From Enterobacteria phage vB_EcoM_IME540, in the sequence record MT150133.1: a stretch of 64,000 nucleotides of DNA; one strand, written 5' to 3'. Of this stretch, positions 30,983-43,681 are shown one piece after another; position 1 is the first letter of the stretch, and every line of letters starts with the position of its first letter. A program made the translations under genes and the position numbers. The notes beneath the pieces are model-generated. The model searched no databases. It was not told the DNA's origin and worked only from the letters and a program-made list of their open reading frames with translations.

Positions 30983-31423
30983 TTAACCTCGATTCATAAA
31001 AGCATTAAAAATTTGGTCATCAATTGAATAAACCGGGGCTTCCAGAATTTTCAACAGACTATTTTTGATATACTTGCTAGGGATATCCATGTTAATGCCG
31101 TCATTCAATTCATTGTCCGGGAGGATATCTTTAAATTCAAACCCATCAAACTCAACCCTATCAGGAATACCATCAGCGAAAAAATAAACCAATTGGTGCA
31201 TTGCATTGCACGAAAATAATTTAGACTTGACCGCAATAAGTTCTTGCCAATGGTTTAATTCTCTGTTAAGGAGTTTACGAGCAAATATAATTCTATCATC
31301 ACTATCAACAAGAAAATAACCTAGGTATTGGTGGTCGTCGCTCCAATACATCCTGTATGCTTGCGCATTTGGATTTTTACAACGAAGTTTTTTGATAACT
31401 AAATTTCTGTTAATCTTATTCAC
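30983..31423 (-). CDS. hypothetical protein (146 aa)
   Basis: ORF in 61-to-41 intergenic gene set. Confidence 0.65.
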   Translation of the reverse strand: MNKINRNLVIKKLRCKNPNAQAYRMYWSDDHQYLGYFLVDSDDRIIFARKLLNRELNHWQELIAVKSKLFSCNAMHQLVYFFADGIPDRVEFDGFEFKDILPDNELNDGINMDIPSKYIKNSLLKILEAPVYSIDDQIFNAFMNRG

Positions 31424-31709
31424 CTGTCACCTCTTTAACGATATTTTTGTTATCGAAATTGGCATCGCAATACAAAACATAGTTATATTGCATAACACCG
31501 CCTGAAGCTAATTGGTCTGACACTTCTTTAGCCATATCAGGGCGGTCGCGTTTAGTGATGTTCATTATATCAGCATAAATCTGATGTTCGACTGATTCTT
31601 GGTCTGCAGTCATAGACCATTCACAAAGGTCTTTATCCAATCCAGCCGTAACTGGAGCGGTGCCACATGATGCTACTGTAAGGATTGCTGCGATTAATAA
31701 CTTTTTCAT
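31416..31709 (-). CDS. sp: spackle periplasmic protein Sp (superinfection exclusion, lysozyme inhibitor)
   Basis: Track ORF trimmed to ATG MKKLLIAAILTVASC; matches recalled T4 Sp (DKDLCEWSMTADQ, IMNI.KRDRP.M, GGVMQYNYVLYCD.NF.NKNI); 97 aa. Confidence 0.85.
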   Translation of the reverse strand: MKKLLIAAILTVASCGTAPVTAGLDKDLCEWSMTADQESVEHQIYADIMNITKRDRPDMAKEVSDQLASGGVMQYNYVLYCDANFDNKNIVKEVTGE

Positions 31710-31737
31710 TTTTAACTCCTCGTTAGTTGATAGGTCT

Positions 31738-31767
31738 ATAGTATCACTACCATAGACCGTTGTAAAC
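31738..31767 (-). promoter_or_regulatory. early promoter (-35 GTTTAC, 18 nt, TGa-extended -10 TACTAT)
   Basis: Followed by leader AGACCTATCAACTAACGAGGAG; spacer GGTCTAT is complementary to leader ATAGACC. Confidence 0.6.
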
Positions 31768-31768
31768 A

Positions 31769-32008
31769 CTATTTCAACGAATCTTCCAAATAAATTTTAC
31801 GGAATTTACGTTTTGTCTGACGAATCTGACGCTTAGTAGGTTTCACAGGAAAATCGAAGAACTCTACGTATTCTTGTTCATAATCGTTGTGACCGACTGA
31901 AAGAACCAGTTCCCAGTTGCTTACGGTACGTTGGATAAACATGTTATGCTTACCAAAAGATTTATTCCAAAAAGAACTAGGAGTTGGTTTCATTAAGGTA
32001 ATATTCAT
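31769..32008 (-). CDS. small basic protein, PTKRQ-motif paralog family (copy B)
   Basis: 79 aa; motif VKPTKRQIRQTKRKFRK. Confidence 0.6.
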   Translation of the reverse strand: MNITLMKPTPSSFWNKSFGKHNMFIQRTVSNWELVLSVGHNDYEQEYVEFFDFPVKPTKRQIRQTKRKFRKIYLEDSLK

Positions 32009-35741: not shown

Positions 35742-36635
35742 TTAAAGGACCACGTCCTCATAACTTGGCATTTCGTGCTCAGAATGGATGTGGGCACCGA
35801 AATAAATGAATTCAGCCAGACCAGGATGGAATACTAAACTGGGATTCTCATGATAAATGATATGAGGTCTTGATTTCAGAATCTGATAATATTCAACCTT
35901 ACTCGGTTTGAATTTAATAATCTCTACATCAGGACGATGGTCTTCACGCTTAAATGAATCATTCGGATCGGTGATATAAAGGCGAGAACCTTCAGCCGCA
36001 GCTTGGTCTACAACTCTTTCGAATTGATAGCATTTATCTGAGATACGGAATGGATGGAAAATACCATCAATTTTAATAGGCGCTAGACCTTCAGAGTAAC
36101 GCTCAATTACTGCGGGATTAATTACCTTTTGGTCTACAAAAATCTTATCAGAGGACGCACCTCGTGACACCAGGACGTCTTTCTGACATTGATTCAAGAC
36201 TGTAGTATAAATCGAACGTTCAACTGAGGACACGTCGGTATCAATAAACTCGTCGATATAATAACGAGGAACTTCAGGGTCCATTGTAATGTTAAAGTTG
36301 AATTGTACAGTCTGAGTGCCATCATAACCTGTGATATCGGTTACCAATCCTGAGCAGTCATAGTATTCGATTAACGAATCAACAACGAACTCGTTTTCAG
36401 ACCAAAAATGTTTACGAGTTTCATAAGCATTTTCTTTATACCAAAGCGGTACAAAATTCAGTTCAGGAAATAATTCAATGCATTCTTTGATATCGCTCGA
36501 ATTTCTAGGATAAGCCAGATAATCACCTGGGCAAGCACGGTTTAAATGGAGTTGAAAATTACCGTCCTTAAGGACGGCATATTCACCTGTTTCGTAACTA
36601 CGCATACTGAAAATAGGAACGATAAACAAACTCAT
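35742..36635 (-). CDS. hypothetical protein in the beta-glucosyltransferase slot; candidate DNA-sugar transferase
   Basis: 297 aa between uvsX and 42 where T4 has bgt; no similarity to recalled T4 beta-GT; ATG overlaps gp42 stop (ATGA); function inferred from context only. Confidence 0.4.
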   Translation of the reverse strand: MSLFIVPIFSMRSYETGEYAVLKDGNFQLHLNRACPGDYLAYPRNSSDIKECIELFPELNFVPLWYKENAYETRKHFWSENEFVVDSLIEYYDCSGLVTDITGYDGTQTVQFNFNITMDPEVPRYYIDEFIDTDVSSVERSIYTTVLNQCQKDVLVSRGASSDKIFVDQKVINPAVIERYSEGLAPIKIDGIFHPFRISDKCYQFERVVDQAAAEGSRLYITDPNDSFKREDHRPDVEIIKFKPSKVEYYQILKSRPHIIYHENPSLVFHPGLAEFIYFGAHIHSEHEMPSYEDVVL

Positions 36636-37330
36636 TTCAGGAATCCTCGAACGTAGTCAAAATCACGTTCAAATACGTGTGCACTAACCATAGTATGGGA
36701 ATACGTACCCAGACCAACACCACACTGTTCAGCAATAAAGGCCATCAGTTTACCCTGCAGATAGAAATCCAGCTGCATAACAATAGCACAGTTCTGTGAA
36801 CGCATATGGGTATGTGCATAAAGACGTCCATCACGAATATAATATGTCACTGAATCAGTACATGGATATTCTAAGGATTCGTCAGAATCAAGGAGGGCTT
36901 GGTCTTGTTCTTGGAGAATTTGGAACACAACTCGTCTTGAGTTAGGCTTCTCTTTAAGCTCTTTAAGTAAGGCTGGGAGTTGGGCCACAATTCTAGGTCC
37001 ATAGAAAGTGTTGAAGTTTGCAGGCAATACGTCACTTTTCGGCTTATCAATGAACTTAGCAACATTAGGGTATTCCTTAAATGCTTCGGCGGCGTCAGTA
37101 CCACCAGAAATCATAAACTTCCAGAAAGATTCGGCATAATCATAGTTGATACGATTAATACGAGGGTCGGTGAATTTATAGGTGCTTGCATCCAGTACTT
37201 CTACCGAAGCAGAACCAATTTCATAACAACAGCCGATACGAGAATCAACTGCAAACTGTGGAGCTTCCAGGATTTCTTCGTTCATTTGCTTAAACGCGTT
37301 TTCAAAACTAACAGCGGTAATGTGTTTCAT
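36632..37330 (-). CDS. 42: dCMP hydroxymethylase gp42 (thymidylate-synthase fold)
   Basis: 232 aa; TS-family core PCTDSVTYYIRDGRLYAHTHMRSQNCAIVMQLDF parallels T4 gp42 MCTNTVQYLIRDKKINAVVNMRSNDVVFGFRND; SD AAGGTGA. Confidence 0.8.
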   Translation of the reverse strand: MKHITAVSFENAFKQMNEEILEAPQFAVDSRIGCCYEIGSASVEVLDASTYKFTDPRINRINYDYAESFWKFMISGGTDAAEAFKEYPNVAKFIDKPKSDVLPANFNTFYGPRIVAQLPALLKELKEKPNSRRVVFQILQEQDQALLDSDESLEYPCTDSVTYYIRDGRLYAHTHMRSQNCAIVMQLDFYLQGKLMAFIAEQCGVGLGTYSHTMVSAHVFERDFDYVRGFLK

Positions 37331-37863
37331 TTATTCACCTTATTTTCAATATATTCATTCAGACGTTTTAATTCTACCATATCGACGTTAAGCAAGTTAT
37401 TATGGCCGTCGTGATTTAAGATTTTAAACACGTTTTCAAAACATGTTTCATATTGCCGGATAGTTAGGTTGAACTCATCTTTGGTTAATTTAATAAGGTC
37501 ATCTTCAAAGTCTTTATCCAGTGGATTACGGGTTAAAATAACCTCAATAATATTGAATTCAGATTTAAACCCTTTCCAATCTTCCAGTTCTACATAAGGG
37601 TCCATTTCACCACGAAGGAATCCAGAGTAAACAATATTACTAGGATACCCACGGTCTAAGATGTAGACAAAATTAGGGTCTAAAAACTTATACAACGTCT
37701 CGACTAAAGCCTTGTCATTATCAGTCCCTAATGAAATGCATTTGCCATTAATCTTTTTAGGGAAATCAATAAGACGATATTTCTTATCAGATAAAAGTGA
37801 TTCAATTAAAGTAGACTTCCCGGAATTATCCGGGCCGTCGATAACAATGATTTTTGGTTTCAC
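37327..37863 (-). CDS. P-loop kinase, thymidylate-kinase-like
   Basis: 178 aa; Walker A IVIDGPDNSGKST and TMPK-like LDRGYPSNIVYSG; GTG start overlapping the upstream stop (GTGA); no early in-frame ATG. Confidence 0.65.
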   Translation of the reverse strand: MKPKIIVIDGPDNSGKSTLIESLLSDKKYRLIDFPKKINGKCISLGTDNDKALVETLYKFLDPNFVYILDRGYPSNIVYSGFLRGEMDPYVELEDWKGFKSEFNIIEVILTRNPLDKDFEDDLIKLTKDEFNLTIRQYETCFENVFKILNHDGHNNLLNVDMVELKRLNEYIENKVNK

Positions 37864-38219
37864 GGATGATATGCCTTATAGGTTTCAAGAGTTCCTTCAC
37901 GAACCATTTCTTTAAAGTGGTCAGGACGGATTGCTCGGTCATCGATGATAAAAGTATAACTCGGCTTATGTGTAAGCAGATTGTGATATTTCAATCCAAT
38001 CTTTTCAAGGTTCTTAACTAATGCAGGAACTACTTCAACCAAGATTCGACCTGGGCCGCATGAAGTCATACCACGGGCAGTGAACAAGGTAATCTCGTAC
38101 CCTTCATCATAAAGCTTATTAATCACGGACACCATTTCGGTGTCCGGTTTAAAGTTTTCGTAATCACGGTCATCTTGCCAGTGAGTAATGGTATTATCGA
38201 TATCAAAACACAGATGCAT
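37860..38219 (-). CDS. HAD-superfamily phosphatase
   Basis: 119 aa; HAD motif I FDIDNTIT near N-terminus; ATG overlaps upstream stop (TAATG). Confidence 0.65.
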   Translation of the reverse strand: MHLCFDIDNTITHWQDDRDYENFKPDTEMVSVINKLYDEGYEITLFTARGMTSCGPGRILVEVVPALVKNLEKIGLKYHNLLTHKPSYTFIIDDRAIRPDHFKEMVREGTLETYKAYHP

Positions 38220-39892
38220 TAAATTTTCTTCCATTGTTTGTGGAGTTCGGTAGAACCTGTAGGTTTATATTTTACACCAGTTTCCTGGTCAAGCAAAACC
38301 CACTTATCAGGACAACGAGTGATAATTTGAGCCGTGATAGGGTCGCGAACTTCATCAACGAATTCACCTGTGATAAGCTTACGCTTACGAGGATGCCGCT
38401 TCAGCAGCACACTCAGTTGATATAGCCCATTGTAATAAGCGCCCAGAGCTTTCAGAGGGTTATTTTTAAAGTAACCTGCCAATGCCATCCAGATAACAGC
38501 AATCCAGAGCTTGTGCTTAAATGTACACATCGGAATATCATCTAAAGGCATAACCTTTTCAATATCAACGAATACACGAGTTCCGTTACGAGTTAAGCCA
38601 CCCCATAGAGGGTCAGAGTTAAATTTGTCATAACCATCGATAGAATAAAGCACCTTAGCTTCATCATAAATCGCAGGGCCTTTAGAACTATTACCAAAAT
38701 AACCACGTGGGTCGATGATTTTAATATTACCTTCGTCCGACAACATAATATTACTGTAGTGCGGGTCGCCATGAATAAGTTGGTACGGTTCTTTATGTTC
38801 AGACAGAATTTCTAAGGCGTGACGAAGAAGTTTTTCTGGGTCGCCTACCTTGAAGTCGTTAACATGGGTAATACCCTGTGGAGCAAAGCCTTCAATCAAT
38901 CCGGCAATAGAAGCATTACGAATAAGGACCTTGTCCAATACTTCTTTCTTAACATCAGAATACCATTGCTCATCGGATGGATTATCGATAGTTCCACCGA
39001 ATGAACGTAATGCACTAATGACCTTATAAACCATGAGGACTTTAGTTTCTTTAGACATAAACCGATAGGCGTCTGCCATGGTGCGACCAAAGATACGTTC
39101 CATTTTAATGAATTCACCTGGAGCAAAGTCTACAATGCTAGGAACGAATTCAGAATCAATAGAATTGTACCAATTGATTTCTTTAGATTGGATTTCTTTA
39201 CCTAATTCGTTTGTAGGTACTTTAATAGCTAGATTCTCAGTGAACTCTAATTTATTAAATTCACGGTTAATTTCAGAATCTTCATGGGCCTTAGCCAGTT
39301 TCAGTTTGTCACCAACATCAACTACAAAGTCTAACTTACGTTCAGTCAAATGGACCATTGAATCCAGGTTGTCAGCAAGGTCTTCACCATAATTAGAACG
39401 GTCGAAACCTGTCCAATTAGCCACCTGATACAAGCCAACTACGCCACCACCGGTACCAATTTCACGCAAGTACGGTTCTTCAAATGTAAAACGACAGTCA
39501 GTCCCATAGGTATAACAGTAGTCGTTATCCCACTCAACTTTATGACCTTCAGGAATAATATCACACCAGTTAAACAAGACATTGTGCCCAATGATATCTT
39601 CGGCAATGCAATCGATAGCATGAGCCGAACCATTGGCAACATCAACGTTACGAATAGTGAATTTAGGCTTATCACTATTAATCATGTTAATGGATTTAAT
39701 ATAGCCTTTAACGAGGTCGTTAAATTTGCTGTGAATAACCAGAATAATTTCATCTGATTGATTACTATACAAATCATACAAATGTTTTAATACAGTATGT
39801 TGTTTGTAGTTAACCAGTACCTTCGGGATTTCGTTGGTAATTGGATACAACCGTGAGCCAAGACCCGCGCCTAAAATAACAACCTTTTTCAT
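38219..39892 (-). CDS. bifunctional protein: N-terminal sugar-phosphate nucleotidyltransferase, C-terminal APH/choline-kinase-like kinase
   Basis: N-terminus VVILGAGLGSRLYPITNEIPKVLV fits the G-x-G-x-R-x-P...PK signature; C-terminus LIHGDPHYSNIML ... IKIIDPRG fits a protein-kinase-like fold; start at ATG MKKVVIL after SD GAGGAA. Confidence 0.7.
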   Translation of the reverse strand: MKKVVILGAGLGSRLYPITNEIPKVLVNYKQHTVLKHLYDLYSNQSDEIILVIHSKFNDLVKGYIKSINMINSDKPKFTIRNVDVANGSAHAIDCIAEDIIGHNVLFNWCDIIPEGHKVEWDNDYCYTYGTDCRFTFEEPYLREIGTGGGVVGLYQVANWTGFDRSNYGEDLADNLDSMVHLTERKLDFVVDVGDKLKLAKAHEDSEINREFNKLEFTENLAIKVPTNELGKEIQSKEINWYNSIDSEFVPSIVDFAPGEFIKMERIFGRTMADAYRFMSKETKVLMVYKVISALRSFGGTIDNPSDEQWYSDVKKEVLDKVLIRNASIAGLIEGFAPQGITHVNDFKVGDPEKLLRHALEILSEHKEPYQLIHGDPHYSNIMLSDEGNIKIIDPRGYFGNSSKGPAIYDEAKVLYSIDGYDKFNSDPLWGGLTRNGTRVFVDIEKVMPLDDIPMCTFKHKLWIAVIWMALAGYFKNNPLKALGAYYNGLYQLSVLLKRHPRKRKLITGEFVDEVRDPITAQIITRCPDKWVLLDQETGVKYKPTGSTELHKQWKKI

Positions 39893-39952
39893 TATCTGTT
39901 CCTCAAGTGAATGTAGGTACATTATACACTATTTTTAATAAATTGGTATTGC

Positions 39953-40453
39953 TTAAATCTTATCTTTACCGATTTCAATACACTGTTCTATTGCCGCCGG
40001 TGCTTTGGTCTTGAGCTTATCGATTTGTTTCTTATAATCACGAGCTTTACCGAAGCTCTCGGTTTCGAGCATTTCGTAATAACGAGCCTCGTGGATGGAA
40101 ATCTGTAGATTGATATGGTTTACGCACATCGCATACAGTTTCTGCTTTTTGTACAAATCATCTTGACGCTTCATTTCTGCCTGGTGTTTGGCTAGTACCG
40201 CTTCACGCTTGGACTCTTGTTCACGTTGGAATTCGATTTCTTGTTGAGCATATTTTGCACAGTTATTACCGCATTGATTATTAGCTCGGGTGTACACAAG
40301 TCCAGAACCTGCACGGAATTTCATTTCGCCATCGAATTGTTTCTGTTCAGCTGCGATACGAGCTTTACCAACTTCATCGGCCGAAACTGTATCACCATAT
40401 TGGACCGCGCAACCTGATAGGAGCATACTCATTGCGATAATTAACTTTTTCAT
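39953..40453 (-). CDS. predicted lipoprotein (166 aa), coiled-coil rich
   Basis: Signal MKKLIIAMSMLLSGC with lipobox LLSGC; lies two genes downstream of imm; SD GAGGA. Confidence 0.65.
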   Translation of the reverse strand: MKKLIIAMSMLLSGCAVQYGDTVSADEVGKARIAAEQKQFDGEMKFRAGSGLVYTRANNQCGNNCAKYAQQEIEFQREQESKREAVLAKHQAEMKRQDDLYKKQKLYAMCVNHINLQISIHEARYYEMLETESFGKARDYKKQIDKLKTKAPAAIEQCIEIGKDKI

Positions 40454-40460
40454 AATATCC

Positions 40461-40598
40461 TCAATTAAAACAGTTATACTTAATTTGTGCTATAAGAATA
40501 ATCCATCCAATGATGAGTGTCGGAATCATTGGGGGAATTGCCACTGCCCAATAAATGGTAAAGGCAGTCATTATAAGAAATAAAATAATTATTTTCAT
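40461..40598 (-). CDS. small hydrophobic peptide (45 aa), translationally coupled to imm
   Basis: ATG overlaps imm TGA stop (ATGA); MKIIILFLIMTAFTIYWAVAIPPMIPTLIIGWIILIAQIKYNCFN; its stop sits within the lipoprotein SD. Confidence 0.45.
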   Translation of the reverse strand: MKIIILFLIMTAFTIYWAVAIPPMIPTLIIGWIILIAQIKYNCFN

Positions 40599-40831
40599 TG
40601 CTTAACAATAATGATTTGTGCGTTTGATTTACGTTCAGCGACGATAGCCCAGATTAAAGCCACTACCCAACCAATCATCGTCCAGCCTAACAGGAGATTA
40701 AGGAAGAAAATTCCGACATTACTACGAGTGCCTCGCAGAAGAGCCAGAATCCATGGTAAAAAGTAACCGATGAACATAATAACCAGAGAACCGAATCCTA
40801 AAACACCAGCACTAACGATTAAAGCTTCCAT
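40595..40831 (-). CDS. imm: superinfection immunity protein Imm-like membrane protein
   Basis: 78 aa, two predicted TM helices, motif LLGWTMIGWVVALIWA; located between 42 cluster and 43 as T4 imm; call rests on motif memory and position. Confidence 0.65.
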   Translation of the reverse strand: MEALIVSAGVLGFGSLVIMFIGYFLPWILALLRGTRSNVGIFFLNLLLGWTMIGWVVALIWAIVAERKSNAQIIIVKQ

Positions 40832-40861: not shown

Positions 40862-40891
40862 ATACTACCACGTTCCTTGTGGTATGTAAAC
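40862..40891 (-). promoter_or_regulatory. early promoter (-35 GTTTAC, 18 nt, -10 TAGTAT)
   Basis: Overlaps the 3' end of gene 43; leader CCTTCCTATCAACTACATGAGGAAATT. Confidence 0.55.
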
Positions 40892-40893
40892 AC

Positions 40894-43605
40894 TTAAAAG
40901 TCGAACATATCAAATAATGTTGCTTTTTTCTCGTAGTCGATTTTAGCAGACTCAGTAAAACCGGTCAGAGGTTTGATAAAGGTCTTTTGGAACAGTACGT
41001 TGTAGTCCATCCAACGGAGGACTTGGTCACGAATCTGAACCGGAAGTTCAATACCTGACGGCCATGCCATACAAGCTTCACCAAACGGGTTGCCTTCTTT
41101 AAGTGGCAGTACATATACCTTTTCACCATCAACGATACGAGGCATAGTCAAATCACCTGCAGAAGCACGCATGTAAGCTAAGCAACCTTTGATGTGGTAT
41201 GGACATTTAGAACCCGGGAATCCACCTTCATTATATTTCTCGATGTTGTTAGCACTGGATACTGCTGCAATGCTTACATAATCGAGTTCGTTAAATTCCT
41301 TATTAAACTGTTTGAAATATTCTTGCAAAGATGCCTCGCCTTCCTGAAGCATACGACGGATACATTCCTTCAGAGCTTTCTGAACTGCTTTAGGTGTACT
41401 TGATTTCTGAGTTTCGAGACCCATGATTTTCAAGTGTGGTTCAGCATAACGAGTACCTTCCATGTCCCAAACGTTAAGTGCATAACGTTTCTTGCCTGTC
41501 CAGAATCCACCAAGGCCTTTAGAACCAAGTGGAGGACCTGCGATAGCTTCTCGGTCCATGAACATCAAGTGTTGTTTGTTGTTCATGTATTCGCACATCT
41601 CACGGAAGCCTGCATCAATAGCTGGTTCCATACGTTCACGTGCAAATTTATCTAAGAAGTCTACCCAGTGGTTAGTATCACGGAATTTATCTTCGCCTAC
41701 TTTATTGATGATTGCATCTGCCTTAACATAAATGGAGTCAGTATCACCGTAGAGCACGAACTTCTGGTTTTCAGTCTTACACACGCTATTCAGATATTCG
41801 TTAACCTTACGTTCAATCCATTGGAGGGCCATTTGACCAAACAATGTGATTGCAGTTGCGTTCCTGAGGTCATAGTAACGGAACCATACGTTACCAAGTG
41901 CACCATAAAGGGAGTTGATAAGCAACTTACGGTTAATCTGAGCAGTGTTACCTGCAACTTCAGTGAGCTCGGCTTTCTTCAACATTTCTCTTAAAGAAGG
42001 CGCTGACAGTGCTTTAATCTGGGCTTTTATTTCGTCAGAGAAGTCAAAACGATAATCGATATCCAGTGGACTATCAACTGAGAGATTAGGATTTTCCAAT
42101 GCTTCTTTAATTAACTCACCATTACGTTGAGCTGCAAGCATGTAACCTTTATGTTCTTTACGCTGCAAGAATACCTTGGTGATTTCTGTCGGAATCACAC
42201 CTTCACGGTCTTTATAGTACATCATGCCGTTAGGAGAGCAACTGTAGGTGTCGCTAGGACGCTGAGCAGTTCCGGCAATATATTCATGTATCGGTGCGTT
42301 AGCGAATGTCCCTGCGATGGTCTCTGGGCTTATATTCACTTGTCGAATGATACTCGGATACAGAGATGTAAGGTCGAAACTCATTACATATTTGTAAGCG
42401 TTAGGAATCGGTTCCTTAACGAAAGCACCAGGATAAGGTTGGACCACGTGCGAACGAGCTTGTGGAATTACCTTGCCTTGTTCTTTAAGGCTATTAAAGA
42501 TAATAGCGTCCCAAGTCTTAATTGGGCTGAACACCGACTGAATCTGCATCTTGGCATAATAACCCATGTCCAAACTCAGAAGAATGAACTGACGCTTCAT
42601 ATCAATCTGCACTACACGATATACGTCGATAATGTTATAGGAAATATATCGTTGGTGGTTCGTCTCACGTAACTTGGAGATTGGGCCATCATATTTCAAC
42701 TTACCTACTTTCAATTCATATTCAGAAACATAATCCAGAGAATAAGAAGGCTGGTTGGTGAAGCTGAATTTTTTATAGAGGTCGATATAATCCAGAACAG
42801 AGATACCGAACAATGTAATGATTTCACGAGCACCGTACATGTTCTCAATAACTTTAACACGAGTTTTACGATGTGGGCTTAATCGCTTAGCAGTGTTCTC
42901 ACCGAACAGATTTTTCAGACGGTTATAAACGTACGGTACGTCAAACGACTCAACGTTCCATCCAGTCAAAATCACAGGAGTTTTCTGTTGCCAGAAATTC
43001 AAGTACTCAAGCATCATTTCTTCTTCAGAATTAAACGGAAGATAAACGATTTTGTCAATGATTTCCTGTGGAACTTCGTCACCACCTTCGTCTTGGAGTT
43101 TCTCAGCGATTTTAATCGACCACTCTTCAACAGTACCATAAGGCGAAACTAAAAGGTCGAATACATAGAATTTATCGTCAATCGAGTCGTAGTGGGTAAT
43201 GGCATCGATAGGATGTTTAGCCTGAGCTGGTTCAGGGAATCCATCAGGAGATGTTACCTCGATGTCGAAGTTAGCAATACGAATCTTAGAAGAATCATAT
43301 TTGATTTCTTTACGATAGGTATCAGACAAATAGGCTAATTTATAGTCGTCCATACCCAGGGCTTCGAGACCCATATCATCCATACGTTTCATCCATTGGG
43401 ATGCATCACGCATAGAATCGAATTCTTTCTTAACACAACCCTTACCATAGATATCAATGTATTTTACGGCTTGCTCTGGATTAGCATGCATAAACATTGT
43501 AGGCTTGTATGGAACTTCACGACTACGTTCGTTACCATTTTTATCGATGTAACGTTCGAGAATATTATCACCGATTTGTTCGACTGTCAAATAGAATTCT
43601 TGCAT
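40894..43605 (-). CDS. 43: DNA polymerase gp43 (family B)
   Basis: From ATG MQEFYLTVEQIGDNILERY; long near-identical stretches to recalled RB69/T4 gp43 (FDIEVT exo motif, SLYPSIIRQVNISPETI, YGDTDS, KKRYALNVWDMEG); track ORF extends 20 codons further upstream. Confidence 0.97.
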   Translation of the reverse strand: MQEFYLTVEQIGDNILERYIDKNGNERSREVPYKPTMFMHANPEQAVKYIDIYGKGCVKKEFDSMRDASQWMKRMDDMGLEALGMDDYKLAYLSDTYRKEIKYDSSKIRIANFDIEVTSPDGFPEPAQAKHPIDAITHYDSIDDKFYVFDLLVSPYGTVEEWSIKIAEKLQDEGGDEVPQEIIDKIVYLPFNSEEEMMLEYLNFWQQKTPVILTGWNVESFDVPYVYNRLKNLFGENTAKRLSPHRKTRVKVIENMYGAREIITLFGISVLDYIDLYKKFSFTNQPSYSLDYVSEYELKVGKLKYDGPISKLRETNHQRYISYNIIDVYRVVQIDMKRQFILLSLDMGYYAKMQIQSVFSPIKTWDAIIFNSLKEQGKVIPQARSHVVQPYPGAFVKEPIPNAYKYVMSFDLTSLYPSIIRQVNISPETIAGTFANAPIHEYIAGTAQRPSDTYSCSPNGMMYYKDREGVIPTEITKVFLQRKEHKGYMLAAQRNGELIKEALENPNLSVDSPLDIDYRFDFSDEIKAQIKALSAPSLREMLKKAELTEVAGNTAQINRKLLINSLYGALGNVWFRYYDLRNATAITLFGQMALQWIERKVNEYLNSVCKTENQKFVLYGDTDSIYVKADAIINKVGEDKFRDTNHWVDFLDKFARERMEPAIDAGFREMCEYMNNKQHLMFMDREAIAGPPLGSKGLGGFWTGKKRYALNVWDMEGTRYAEPHLKIMGLETQKSSTPKAVQKALKECIRRMLQEGEASLQEYFKQFNKEFNELDYVSIAAVSSANNIEKYNEGGFPGSKCPYHIKGCLAYMRASAGDLTMPRIVDGEKVYVLPLKEGNPFGEACMAWPSGIELPVQIRDQVLRWMDYNVLFQKTFIKPLTGFTESAKIDYEKKATLFDMFDF

Positions 43606-43663
43606 TTCATTTCCTTTATAGACGAGTGATTGTCTTTTGTTTGTTGATGAATCATTATACTCC

Positions 43664-43681
43664 AAAAGGGACCGAAGTCCC
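43664..43681 (-). terminator. intrinsic terminator (GGGAC-TTCG-GTCCC plus TTTT)
   Basis: Hairpin after the small ORF downstream of regA; a TATAAT at 43654..43659 and a 48-nt leader precede the gene 43 ATG. Confidence 0.6.

What the first reader, a model, noticed from the sequence alone, without database searches (positions are those of the whole stretch)
39953..40831. Imm-like membrane protein, coupled hydrophobic peptide and a 166-aa lipoprotein as a possible superinfection-exclusion module
The Imm-like gene is followed by an ATGA-coupled 45-aa hydrophobic peptide and then a lipoprotein with a clear lipobox (LLSGC) and a long charged, helical C-terminal region. Spackle, another exclusion protein, is also present at 31416. 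A periplasmic or outer-leaflet lipoprotein beside imm would be well placed to block DNA entry by incoming phage.
Basis: inference. Interest (0 to 1): 0.4.

Follow-up and report, generated by a model that had tools for sequence, protein, structure and literature searches.

The report
T4 imm / 42.1 / imm.1 trio, permuted
The three small genes are real and are this JS98-like phage's versions of the T4 genes imm, 42.1 and imm.1. The lipoprotein belongs to an uncharacterised family that sits beside the superinfection-immunity gene in T4-like phages from at least ten lineages, so a role in blocking secondary infection is plausible but untested.

Summary
On the minus strand, just downstream of DNA polymerase gene 43, lie Imm (78 aa, Pfam PF14373), an ATGA-coupled 45-aa hydrophobic peptide and a 166-aa lipoprotein with lipobox LSGC. 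Spackle is also present near 31416-31709.

The window is a Dhakavirus (JS98/JS10 group). The trio is not new. T4 carries the same three families as imm.1 (lipoprotein, phrog_1754), imm, and an ORF missing from the T4 RefSeq record (42.1, phrog_3610). Only the order differs.

The lipoprotein family lies next to imm in at least ten T4-like lineages, in three arrangements. In Mosigvirus the pair has moved to sit next to spackle.

Against a strict module:
- Phage PEi20 keeps the lipoprotein and the peptide but has no detectable imm or spackle.
- The peptide often sits among arabinose-modification genes instead.
- One Dhakavirus lacks the peptide.

The lipoprotein is predicted to have a conserved beta-hairpin/CxxxC head and a long helical hairpin containing two invariant cysteines. 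The hairpin is swapped as a cassette between near-identical phages. No structural or sequence relative has a known function.

The most likely role is an early periplasmic factor that protects or excludes at the envelope. Family identity is about 0.9 certain; the function about 0.4.

The parts
40862..40890 (-). Early-type promoter-like site (GTTTACA, 17 nt spacer, TAGTAT, with TG) between the gene 43 stop and the imm start
   Evidence: (9 of 12 matches, TG present) and the sequence read. This is a consensus match only. The resemblance to T4 early promoters is from my own knowledge.
40595..40831 (-). imm: 78-aa two-span inner-membrane superinfection immunity protein
   Evidence: Pfam PF14373 at 65 bits and phrog_1039 at 3e-32. 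43% identity to T4 Imm. Two hydrophobic spans, and 6-9 synonymous against 0-2 non-synonymous codon changes within Dhakavirus.
40461..40598 (-). 45-aa hydrophobic peptide, homologue of T4 42.1 (Y02C). Its ATG overlaps the imm stop (ATGA)
   Evidence: phrog_3610 at 1.4e-21. The T4 49-aa ORF between imm and gene 42 belongs to the same PHROG at 1.2e-25 and has the same ATGA overlap. Conserved tail motif MIPTxI..W...Q.KY.C[FI]N. Homologues carry PF26865 in precomputed hits.
39953..40453 (-). 166-aa lipoprotein of the Imm.1 family (phrog_1754)
   Evidence: phrog_1754 at 5.7e-52. T4 imm.1 hits the same PHROG at 6.1e-43. There is no Pfam hit. A search of 1.84 billion representatives finds 18 clusters. 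AF2 model with pLDDT 79.6.
40409..40453 (-). Signal peptide and lipobox (MKKLIIAMSMLLSGC). Cys15 is the lipidation site and residue +2 is Ala
   Evidence: Read from the sequence. G14 and C15 are nearly invariant in the family. No member has Asp at +2. Outer-membrane sorting is inferred from the Lol-avoidance rule, which is my own knowledge.
39953..40200 (-). Cassette-like hypervariable segment encoding the distal helical hairpin (about codons 85-166) of the lipoprotein
   Evidence: Locus L036 is 93-100% identical to the window over 5.5 kb. Identity falls to 66, 40 and 73% only in this gap-free patch. At protein level, P0004 is 96% identical over residues 16-97 and 26% over 98-166.
31416..31709 (-). 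spackle (sp), periplasmic inhibitor of the gp5 tail lysozyme. This is context and is not adjacent to the trio
   Evidence: phrog_1586 at 1.2e-42. ORF listing. Function as described in PMC7677548.
40894..43665 (-). Gene 43 DNA polymerase, the upstream anchor of the conserved interval
   Evidence: annotation of JS10 and close relatives.
38219..39922 (-). 567-aa nucleotidyltransferase/kinase, the first gene of the cytosine-arabinosylation cluster and the downstream neighbour of the trio
   Evidence: Pfam NTP_transferase plus APH and phrog_4098. RB69 gp52:53 has the same domain architecture (PMC13326640). I did not compare the window protein with RB69 gp52:53 directly; it is 43% identical to the counterpart in Mosigvirus phage mogra. 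No terminator lies between it and the lipoprotein gene.

Best explanation
The three ORFs are genuine genes, probably co-transcribed early. They are the Dhakavirus versions of T4 imm, 42.1 and imm.1, which occupy the plastic interval between gene 43 and the gene 42 analogue.

Shown:
- The 166-aa protein is a secreted lipoprotein of the Imm.1 family.
- It has a short linker, a conserved head and a predicted helix of about 70 residues that folds back on itself. The head is a beta-hairpin with the motif G-x-G-x-x-Y, followed by Q-C-G-x-N-C.
- The helical hairpin contains two invariant cysteines, C110 and C158.
- The hairpin sequence is replaced as a cassette between otherwise near-identical phages.

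Inferred:
- The protein is made within minutes of infection and exported.
- It is lipidated on Cys15 and sorted to the inner leaflet of the outer membrane.
- The two cysteines form a disulfide that staples the hairpin.
- The protein projects its hairpin towards the peptidoglycan.
- There it acts as a periplasmic protection or exclusion factor against further T-even attack. It works in parallel with Imm (inner membrane, blocks DNA transfer) and Spackle (periplasm, inhibits the gp5 lysozyme), not as an obligate subunit of Imm.
- The variable hairpin is the likely specificity surface.

The 45-aa peptide is a separate inner-membrane micro-protein. It is translationally coupled to whatever gene lies upstream of it, and its role is unknown.
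For: Identity:
- phrog_1754 is hit by the window protein (5.7e-52), T4 imm.1 (6.1e-43), the Mosigvirus imm.1-like protein (8.8e-29), Melville (4.2e-46), PEi20 (1.1e-45), KM16 (1.1e-46) and KP1 (1.9e-15).
- The N-terminus after the lipid Cys is shared: CAVQYGDTVSADEVGK in the window and CVAQGPVVNQSDVGK in T4.
- The two C-terminal Cys are invariant, with a spacing of 31-48 residues.

Linkage to imm:
- Gene 43, lipoprotein, imm, gene 42 in T4, Melville, Ursula, KP1 and KM16; MHG19 has a motif-bearing relative without a lipobox at the same position.
- Gene 43, imm, peptide, lipoprotein in Dhakavirus, Gaprivervirus and an uncultured lineage whose lipoprotein is only 26% identical.
- imm.1-like, imm, spackle at a different locus in Mosigvirus.

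Timing: an early-type promoter-like site lies upstream of imm and no terminator is found in the cluster.

Periplasmic site of action:
- Lipobox present and no Asp at +2 in any member.
- Two members have an ordinary signal peptide instead of a lipobox.

Arms-race signature: cassette replacement of the hairpin.

The family is restricted to T4-like phages, apart from one copy in a mobile-element context.
Against: - No experiment or paper on imm.1 or this family was found.
- PEi20 has the lipoprotein but no Imm or Spackle, so the lipoprotein cannot depend on them.
- Imm occurs in 1664 phage records, while the two lipoprotein searches found 127 and 657 records. Most Imm genes therefore have no such partner.
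- T4-like genomes are strongly syntenic, so adjacency is partly inherited rather than selected.
- Homology of the mature region to T4 Imm.1 is not independently significant. hhalign gives probability 10% without the signal peptide, and the window protein does not hit Pfam DUF5481.
- Fold searches return only generic helical hairpins.
- T4-type Imm.1 is at least 95% identical in 502 Tequatrovirus records. There it shows no arms-race variation.
Confidence: 0.4

Rival explanations
1. The genes are neighbours by descent only. The gene 43 to gene 42 interval is a plastic slot for small accessory membrane genes. The lipoprotein has a periplasmic role unrelated to superinfection, such as host-specific envelope adaptation. 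Imm, the peptide and the lipoprotein are then functionally independent.
For: PEi20 keeps the lipoprotein and peptide without Imm or Spackle. The peptide sits between arabinose-pathway genes in Mosigvirus, Kanagawavirus, Winklervirus, Kagamiyamavirus and Mosugukvirus. One Dhakavirus lacks the peptide. Most Imm-bearing phages lack the lipoprotein.
Against: The lipoprotein-imm pair survives an order flip. In Mosigvirus it has also relocated to sit next to spackle. A lipoprotein only 26% identical keeps the same arrangement.
Confidence: 0.25
2. The lipoprotein stabilises the envelope or controls lysis timing. As an outer-membrane-anchored rod, it would alter outer-membrane to peptidoglycan coupling, or take part in lysis inhibition or resistance to lysis from without, without blocking DNA entry.
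For: A predicted helix of about 70 residues is anchored by a lipid, an architecture that recalls Braun's lipoprotein (my own knowledge). The protein is predicted to be periplasmic, its gene follows an early-type promoter-like site, and Spackle is linked to lysis from without and to lysis-inhibition collapse.
Against: There is no sequence or significant fold match to Lpp, Pal or the lysis-inhibition proteins. Cassette-like variation of the hairpin is unexpected for a purely structural strut.
Confidence: 0.2
3. The lipoprotein masks a receptor, like T5 Llp or Cor. It would bind the phage's outer-membrane receptor from the periplasmic side, preventing superinfection and loss of progeny on cell debris.
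For: It is a predicted early-expressed outer-membrane lipoprotein in a lytic phage, as Llp is in T5 (PMC9586334 appeared in the search but was not read; the Llp details are my own knowledge). The hairpin is variable.
Against: There is no similarity to any annotated exclusion lipoprotein family in Pfam, PHROGs or NCBIfam. T4-type Imm.1 is at least 95% identical in 502 Tequatrovirus records, although T2, T4 and T6 use different receptors (my own knowledge). Two family members are not lipoproteins.
Confidence: 0.1
4. The lipoprotein is the outer-membrane spanin subunit and acts in lysis.
For: It is a lipoprotein with a helical periplasmic domain.
Against: There is no partner with an N-terminal membrane anchor and a periplasmic coiled coil; the neighbouring gene encodes a wholly hydrophobic 45-aa peptide. 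The gene lies in the early region behind an early-type promoter-like site. It matches no spanin PHROG. PEi20 annotates separate pseT.2 and pseT.3 genes as well as this lipoprotein; their identity as the T4 spanin genes is from my own knowledge.
Confidence: 0.03

Closest known systems
T4 Imm.1 (gene imm.1, Pfam DUF5481 / PF17578, phrog_1754), an uncharacterised predicted lipoprotein between genes 43 and imm
   Same: Same PHROG. Both have a lipobox at Cys15, and the residues just after the lipid Cys are similar. Both have two C-terminal cysteines with the last one 5-8 residues from the end. Both lie in the gene 43 to gene 42 interval next to imm.
   Different: 166 aa against 125 aa. There is no Pfam DUF5481 hit. 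BLASTP is not significant, and hhalign on the mature parts gives probability 10%. T4 lacks the GxGxxYxRxxNQCGxNC motif. Gene order relative to imm is inverted. The T4 type is nearly invariant within its genus, whereas the Dhakavirus-type hairpin is swapped.
T4 Imm (PF14373, phrog_1039)
   Same: The 78-aa gene is a clear orthologue. It scores above the Pfam threshold, is 43% identical, has two membrane spans and lies in the same interval.
   Different: It directly follows gene 43, whereas in T4 imm.1 comes first. Its phenotype has not been tested in this phage.
T4 42.1 / Y02C (phrog_3610, PF26865), a 49-aa ORF between imm and gene 42. It is annotated in T4T (HM137666) but not in RefSeq NC_000866.4
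   Same: Same PHROG. Same ATGA overlap with the imm stop. Same C-terminal motif.
   Different: 45 aa against 49 aa. Here it is followed by the lipoprotein gene rather than gene 42. In other lineages it is coupled to an arabinose-5-phosphate isomerase gene instead of imm.
T5 Llp and Cor-type exclusion lipoproteins
   Same: They resemble this protein only in general kind: small lipoproteins that protect the infected cell at the envelope.
   Different: No sequence or family match. The predicted architecture is a different, long helical hairpin. There is no evidence of receptor specificity.
T4 Spackle (phrog_1586)
   Same: It is an early periplasmic exclusion factor. It is present in this window at 31416-31709 and is adjacent to the imm.1-like/imm pair in Mosigvirus.
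   Different: It is unrelated in sequence, is soluble rather than lipid-anchored, and lies 9 kb away in this phage.

Membership tests
Imm superinfection immunity protein (PF14373 / phrog_1039) | Profile match above the curated threshold | tested here: met
   65.1 bits against a cutoff of 27.9 (E 5.1e-18). phrog_1039 at 3e-32.
Imm superinfection immunity protein (PF14373 / phrog_1039) | Protein of about 80 aa with two hydrophobic membrane spans | tested here: met
   78 aa. Hydropathy peaks are centred on residues 9-26 and 46-60.
Imm superinfection immunity protein (PF14373 / phrog_1039) | Blocks DNA transfer by a superinfecting T-even phage | not testable with these tools
   Needs plating and DNA-entry assays.
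Imm.1 family lipoprotein (phrog_1754) | Match to the PHROG profile that also contains T4 imm.1 | tested here: met
   Window protein 5.7e-52 over residues 1-163. T4 imm.1 6.1e-43 over residues 1-124.
Imm.1 family lipoprotein (phrog_1754) | Match to Pfam DUF5481 (PF17578), the model built on T4 Imm.1 | tested here: not met
   No hit at E up to 10 for the window protein, P0006 or P0010. T4 imm.1 scores 5e-72. The window protein is therefore a member of the wider PHROG, not of DUF5481 as Pfam defines it.
Imm.1 family lipoprotein (phrog_1754) | Independent profile-profile similarity to T4/Mosigvirus Imm.1 beyond the signal peptide | tested here: inconclusive
   Full length: probability 95.5%, E 1.5e-8, but only the first 50 columns align. 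Mature parts only: probability 10%, E 0.003 over 17 residues.
Imm.1 family lipoprotein (phrog_1754) | Signal peptide with a lipobox Cys, and no Asp at +2 | tested here: met
   The window protein has LSGC followed by A. G14 and C15 are at least 90% conserved. The exceptions P0024 and MHG19 have an ordinary signal peptide.
Imm.1 family lipoprotein (phrog_1754) | Two conserved cysteines bracketing a C-terminal helical hairpin | tested here: met
   C110 and C158 are invariant in 26 sequences. They fall in helices 62-131 and 134-162 of the model. Equivalent pairs occur in T4, Mosigvirus, Melville, KP1, KM16 and MHG19. The disulfide bond itself is inferred.
Imm.1 family lipoprotein (phrog_1754) | Position immediately downstream of gene 43 and/or next to imm | tested here: met
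42.1 / Y02C micro-protein (phrog_3610, PF26865) | Profile match and the C-terminal motif KY.C[FI]N | tested here: met
   phrog_3610 at 1.4e-21. The T4 ORF scores 1.2e-25. The motif is seen. PF26865 was not reported by the local Pfam scan but is on record for a homologue.
Llp / Cor receptor-blocking lipoproteins | Sequence or profile similarity to a known exclusion lipoprotein | tested here: not met
   No such hit in Pfam, PHROGs or NCBIfam. PADLOC was not searched.
Llp / Cor receptor-blocking lipoproteins | Binds and masks the phage's outer-membrane receptor | not testable with these tools
   Indirect evidence is against it. T4-type Imm.1 is at least 95% identical in 502 Tequatrovirus records, although these phages use different receptors (my own knowledge).
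Two-component spanin (outer-membrane subunit) | Adjacent or embedded inner-membrane partner with a periplasmic coiled coil, in a late lysis cassette | tested here: not met
   The neighbouring gene encodes a fully hydrophobic 45-aa peptide. The gene is in an early-region context behind an early-type promoter-like site. There is no spanin PHROG hit.
Spackle (phrog_1586), the claim about 31416 | Profile match | tested here: met
   1.2e-42 over residues 1-97 of the protein starting at the internal ATG.

The most novel reading that the evidence does not exclude
The Imm.1 family is a third, so far unrecognised T-even superinfection-exclusion factor. It would be an outer-membrane-anchored periplasmic rod whose exchangeable, disulfide-stapled hairpin determines which incoming phages are stopped. 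It might do this by engaging a tail-tip or tube component as that component crosses the periplasm. It would act together with Imm in the inner membrane, Spackle in the periplasm and possibly the 42.1 micro-protein, giving layered exclusion across the envelope. The single copy found in a mobile-element context (P0029) would then be a phage exclusion gene captured for host defence.
Probability: 0.2. Interest if true: 0.65.

Novelty: new member of a known kind. Interest (0 to 1): 0.4.

Why it matters
Superinfection exclusion by T-even phages has been attributed to two proteins, Imm and Spackle. How Imm works is still unknown.

This work shows three things:
- A lipoprotein family travels with imm through several rearrangements, in T4-like phages from at least ten lineages.
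- T4 itself carries all three genes, one of which is missing from the T4 RefSeq record.
- The lipoprotein has a cassette-variable hairpin.

Together these give concrete candidates for the missing periplasmic part of the exclusion mechanism. They also give a cheap experiment in the best phage model available: delete or express T4 imm.1 and 42.1.

If the function turns out to be unrelated, the result is still useful for annotation. These genes are variously labelled 'immunity protein', 'capsid and scaffold protein', 'iduronate sulfatase' or 'recombination endonuclease' in public records.

Tried and rejected
- **Direct homology to T4 Imm.1.** BLASTP was not significant. hhalign on mature sequences was not significant. 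I therefore rely on PHROG membership, the shared N-terminal motif, the cysteine pattern and gene position.
- **Literature.** Seven searches aimed at imm.1, DUF5481, JS98 or an exclusion lipoprotein found nothing on this family, and the pair 'imm.1' plus 'dda.1' returned no paper. The T4 genome review was not held.
- **More loci from public collections.** IMG/VR gave only 7 loci, from known isolates. Broad alignments were too divergent to seed a scan. Two scans of GTDB species genomes found no bacterial copy.
- **Plasmid search for the mobile-element copy.** It found no informative match.
- **Weak family hits.** MTBP_mid, FlgB and 'T6SS immunity lipoprotein' all score far below their thresholds and were dismissed.
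- **Spanin and Llp/Cor readings.** Both were considered and rejected for the reasons given under the rival explanations.
Full report
**What is there.**

The window is from a Dhakavirus, a T-even phage of the JS98/JS10 group. The 1.2 kb around the finding is 99.9% identical to Salmonella phage vB_SalD_ABTNLS3 and 94-99% identical to about 50 Dhakavirus records.

All genes in this region are on the minus strand:
- Gene 43 DNA polymerase, 40894-43665.
- A 78-aa ORF, 40595-40831.
- A 45-aa ORF, 40461-40598, whose ATG overlaps the preceding TGA.
- A 166-aa ORF, 39953-40453, with a GAGGA ribosome-binding site.
- After 30 nt, a 567-aa nucleotidyltransferase/kinase gene.

A site resembling a T4 early promoter (GTTTACA, 17 nt, TAGTAT with TG) lies between gene 43 and the first small ORF. 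No terminator-like structure occurs in the cluster.

**The three proteins.**

The 78-aa protein is Imm:
- Pfam PF14373 scores 65 bits against a threshold of 27.9. phrog_1039 scores 3e-32.
- It is 43% identical to T4 Imm.
- It has two hydrophobic spans and is under strong purifying selection within the genus.

The 45-aa peptide belongs to phrog_3610.

The 166-aa protein:
- It begins MKKLIIAMSMLLSGC, a canonical lipobox.
- It has no Pfam or NCBIfam match and belongs to phrog_1754, annotated 'unknown function'.
- The mature form is 152 aa, 17.4 kDa, pI 8.5.

The ORF at 31416 is indeed Spackle (phrog_1586, 1.2e-42). It probably starts at the internal ATG at 31709.

**The trio exists in T4.**

T4 imm.1 lies between genes 43 and imm and encodes a 125-aa protein. 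It is also a lipoprotein, starting MKIAILVIALGLAGC followed by VAQGPVVNQSDVGK. It hits the same phrog_1754 at 6.1e-43. Pfam places it in DUF5481.

A local tblastn with the 45-aa peptide hit the supposedly intergenic 153 nt between T4 imm and gene 42. That region holds a 49-codon ORF, MKSKIIAALLLILMIIISIYYSVTVPLMIPTIILGWSLLLLQVKYECIN. Its ATG overlaps the imm stop exactly as in the window, and it hits phrog_3610 at 1.2e-25.

This ORF is absent from RefSeq NC_000866.4 and from MT984581.1. It is annotated '42.1' in T4T, and tblastn finds it in 765 phage records. Homologues carry PF26865 (Phage_T4_Y02C) in precomputed tables.

T4 therefore reads 43, imm.1, imm, 42.1, 42. The window reads 43, imm, 42.1-like, imm.1-like, followed by the arabinosylation genes and the gene 42 analogue (a ThyA-like ORF at 36632-37330).

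**How far the homology to T4 Imm.1 can be trusted.**

- PHROG membership is clear for both proteins.
- My own tests are weaker. BLASTP is not significant.
- hhalign of a 26-sequence family alignment against T4 Imm.1 gives 95.5% probability, but only over the signal peptide and the next 35 residues.
- With signal peptides removed, the probability is 10%.

What remains is circumstantial support:
- A shared motif just after the lipid Cys.
- Two cysteines near the C-terminus in every member. Their spacing is 31-48 residues, and the last one lies 3-8 residues from the end.
- The same genomic slot.

I therefore file the protein under the Imm.1 family in the PHROG sense, not under Pfam DUF5481.

**Distribution and synteny.**

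A profile search of 1.84 billion representative proteins finds only 18 clusters. tblastn finds the window type in 127 phage records and the T4 type in 657, and all the listed hits are T4-like phages.

| Arrangement | Lineages |
|---|---|
| 43, lipoprotein, imm, 42 | Tequatrovirus, Gelderlandvirus (Melville), Ursula, Jiaodavirus (KP1), Moonvirus (KM16), Yersinia phage MHG19 |
| 43, imm, peptide, lipoprotein | Dhakavirus, Gaprivervirus, and an uncultured lineage whose lipoprotein is only 26% identical |
| 43, lipoprotein, arabinose-5-P isomerase, peptide, nucleotidyltransferase/kinase | Kanagawavirus (PEi20, CIP9), Winklervirus (CHI14), Kagamiyamavirus (EcS1), Mosugukvirus (PM2), and two metagenome contigs in which no peptide gene was called |
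| 43, isomerase, peptide, nucleotidyltransferase/kinase; and at a separate locus dmd, one ORF, imm.1-like, imm, spackle | Mosigvirus |

The pair lipoprotein plus imm thus survives an inversion of order. It also survives a relocation that places it beside the other known exclusion gene. This is the best evidence for a functional link.

**Evidence against an obligate module.**

- I assembled the whole PEi20 genome from four fetches. I searched all stop-to-stop ORFs with Imm and Spackle profiles, with filters off. The best E-value was 0.2. PEi20 therefore keeps the lipoprotein and the peptide without Imm or Spackle.
- Imm occurs in 1664 phage records, including siphoviruses and mycobacteriophages. 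Most of these lack the lipoprotein.
- Dhakavirus vB_EcoM_005 has imm directly followed by the lipoprotein gene, with no peptide gene.
- From my own knowledge of Lu and Henning (J Virol 1989), which is not held in the library, imm alone on a plasmid excludes T4.
- The background on Imm and Spackle that I could read is in PMC7677548.

**Structure.**

Two AlphaFold2 runs agree. The better one used 26 sequences and has mean pLDDT 79.6. It shows:
- A low-confidence region (pLDDT below 50) at residues 9-23, covering the end of the signal peptide and the linker after the lipid Cys.
- A short helix, residues 27-39.
- A beta-hairpin, residues 42-56.
- A 70-residue helix, residues 62-131.
- A return helix, residues 134-162, with pLDDT above 90.

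The invariant or nearly invariant residues (G49, G51, Y54, Q60, C61, G62, N64, C65, A69) cluster in the beta-hairpin and at the start of the long helix. C110 and C158 are invariant. They sit 22 and 25 residues from the turn, so a disulfide staple is likely; this is an inference.

No member has Asp at +2, so outer-membrane sorting is expected; this uses the Lol-avoidance rule and is also an inference. Two members have an ordinary signal peptide rather than a lipobox. This points to a periplasmic site of action.

Fold searches give nothing specific.

**A variable cassette.**

A metagenomic Dhakavirus contig (L036) is 93-100% identical to the window in every 100-nt window across 5.5 kb. The exception is one gap-free patch at about 40200-39950, where identity falls to 66, 40 and 73%.

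The patch is codons 85-166 of the lipoprotein gene and ends at its stop codon. At protein level, identity is 96% over residues 16-97 and 26% over 98-166. The protein was seen on two contigs, so an assembly artefact is unlikely.

Another allele, P0005, shows 77% against 39%. The distal hairpin is therefore exchanged while the anchor and head stay constant. This is the pattern expected of a specificity determinant, although weak constraint on a coiled-coil scaffold combined with recombination could also produce it.

By contrast, T4-type Imm.1 is at least 95% identical in 502 Tequatrovirus records.

**One copy outside T4-like phages.**

P0029 hits phrog_1754 at 3.6e-18 and is 37-39% identical to Moonvirus lipoproteins. 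It lies beside a divergent HTH regulator, an acetyltransferase and serine recombinases on two metagenome contigs. Scans of GTDB species genomes found no further bacterial copies.

**Verdict.**

I put about 0.9 on the identification of the families. I put about 0.4 on an envelope-level exclusion or protection role for the lipoprotein that is independent of, but allied to, Imm. The remaining probability is spread over inherited neighbourhood without shared function, envelope or lysis-timing roles, receptor masking and, very unlikely, a spanin.

The downstream genes belong to the cytosine-arabinosylation pathway described for RB69 (PMC13326640). They are not part of the finding.

Noticed in passing
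L002 4228-4377 (-), which is NC_000866.4 26227-26376: The T4 RefSeq record and MT984581.1 lack a conserved 49-codon ORF between imm and gene 42. It is phrog_3610 at 1.2e-25 and overlaps the imm stop as ATGA. T4T (HM137666) annotates it as 42.1, and tblastn finds it in 765 phage records.
   Followed up: yes
window 39953-40200 compared with L036 2750-3000: A sharply bounded, gap-free patch of 40-73% nucleotide identity lies inside an otherwise 93-100% identical 5.5 kb. It covers only the C-terminal helical hairpin of the lipoprotein, which looks like a cassette exchange.
   Followed up: partly
window 35742-39922 (-): Downstream of the trio lie a 567-aa nucleotidyltransferase/kinase with the same domain architecture as RB69 gp52:53, two small ORFs, a ThyA-like 232-aa ORF and a 297-aa ORF, before uvsX. 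This fits the arabinosyl-5-hydroxycytosine DNA modification cluster described in PMC13326640. No arabinose-5-phosphate isomerase gene is adjacent here, unlike in Mosigvirus or Kanagawavirus.
   Followed up: partly
L020-L023 (Edwardsiella phage PEi20, whole genome): No Imm or Spackle homologue is detectable anywhere in the 177.6 kb genome (best E 0.2). The Imm.1-family lipoprotein and the 47-aa peptide are both present downstream of gene 43.
   Followed up: yes
L009 3755-4498 (Escherichia phage vB_EcoM_005): This Dhakavirus lacks the 45-aa peptide gene. The imm stop is 10 nt before the lipoprotein start codon.
   Followed up: partly
L032 3001-3459 and L033 1633-2091: A family member, P0029 (phrog_1754 at 3.6e-18), lies outside any T4-like context. 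It sits next to a divergent HTH regulator, an acetyltransferase and serine recombinases, so it may have been captured by a mobile element.
   Followed up: partly
L008 2495-3530 (Shigella phage SHSML-52-1, Mosigvirus): The imm.1-like gene, imm and spackle are contiguous, between dmd and the primase gene. This is about 10 kb away from gene 43, where the arabinose genes and the peptide remain.
   Followed up: partly
window 31416-31769 (-): The longest Spackle ORF starts at a GTG at 31769. The signal peptide, MKKLLIAAILTVASC..., begins at the internal ATG at 31709, which is the more likely start.
   Followed up: no
public records listed: Annotation of these genes is inconsistent. The lipoprotein is labelled 'capsid and scaffold protein', 'recombination endonuclease subunit-containing protein' or 'immunity protein'. 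T4 imm.1 is labelled 'iduronate sulfatase' in RefSeq. The peptide is often unannotated, and JS10 annotates a shorter 36-aa version.
   Followed up: no
L027 1582-1962 (Yersinia phage MHG19) and P0024: Two family members have an ordinary cleavable signal peptide instead of a lipobox. They keep the GxGxxY motif and the two C-terminal cysteines, so the lipid anchor appears dispensable in some lineages.
   Followed up: no
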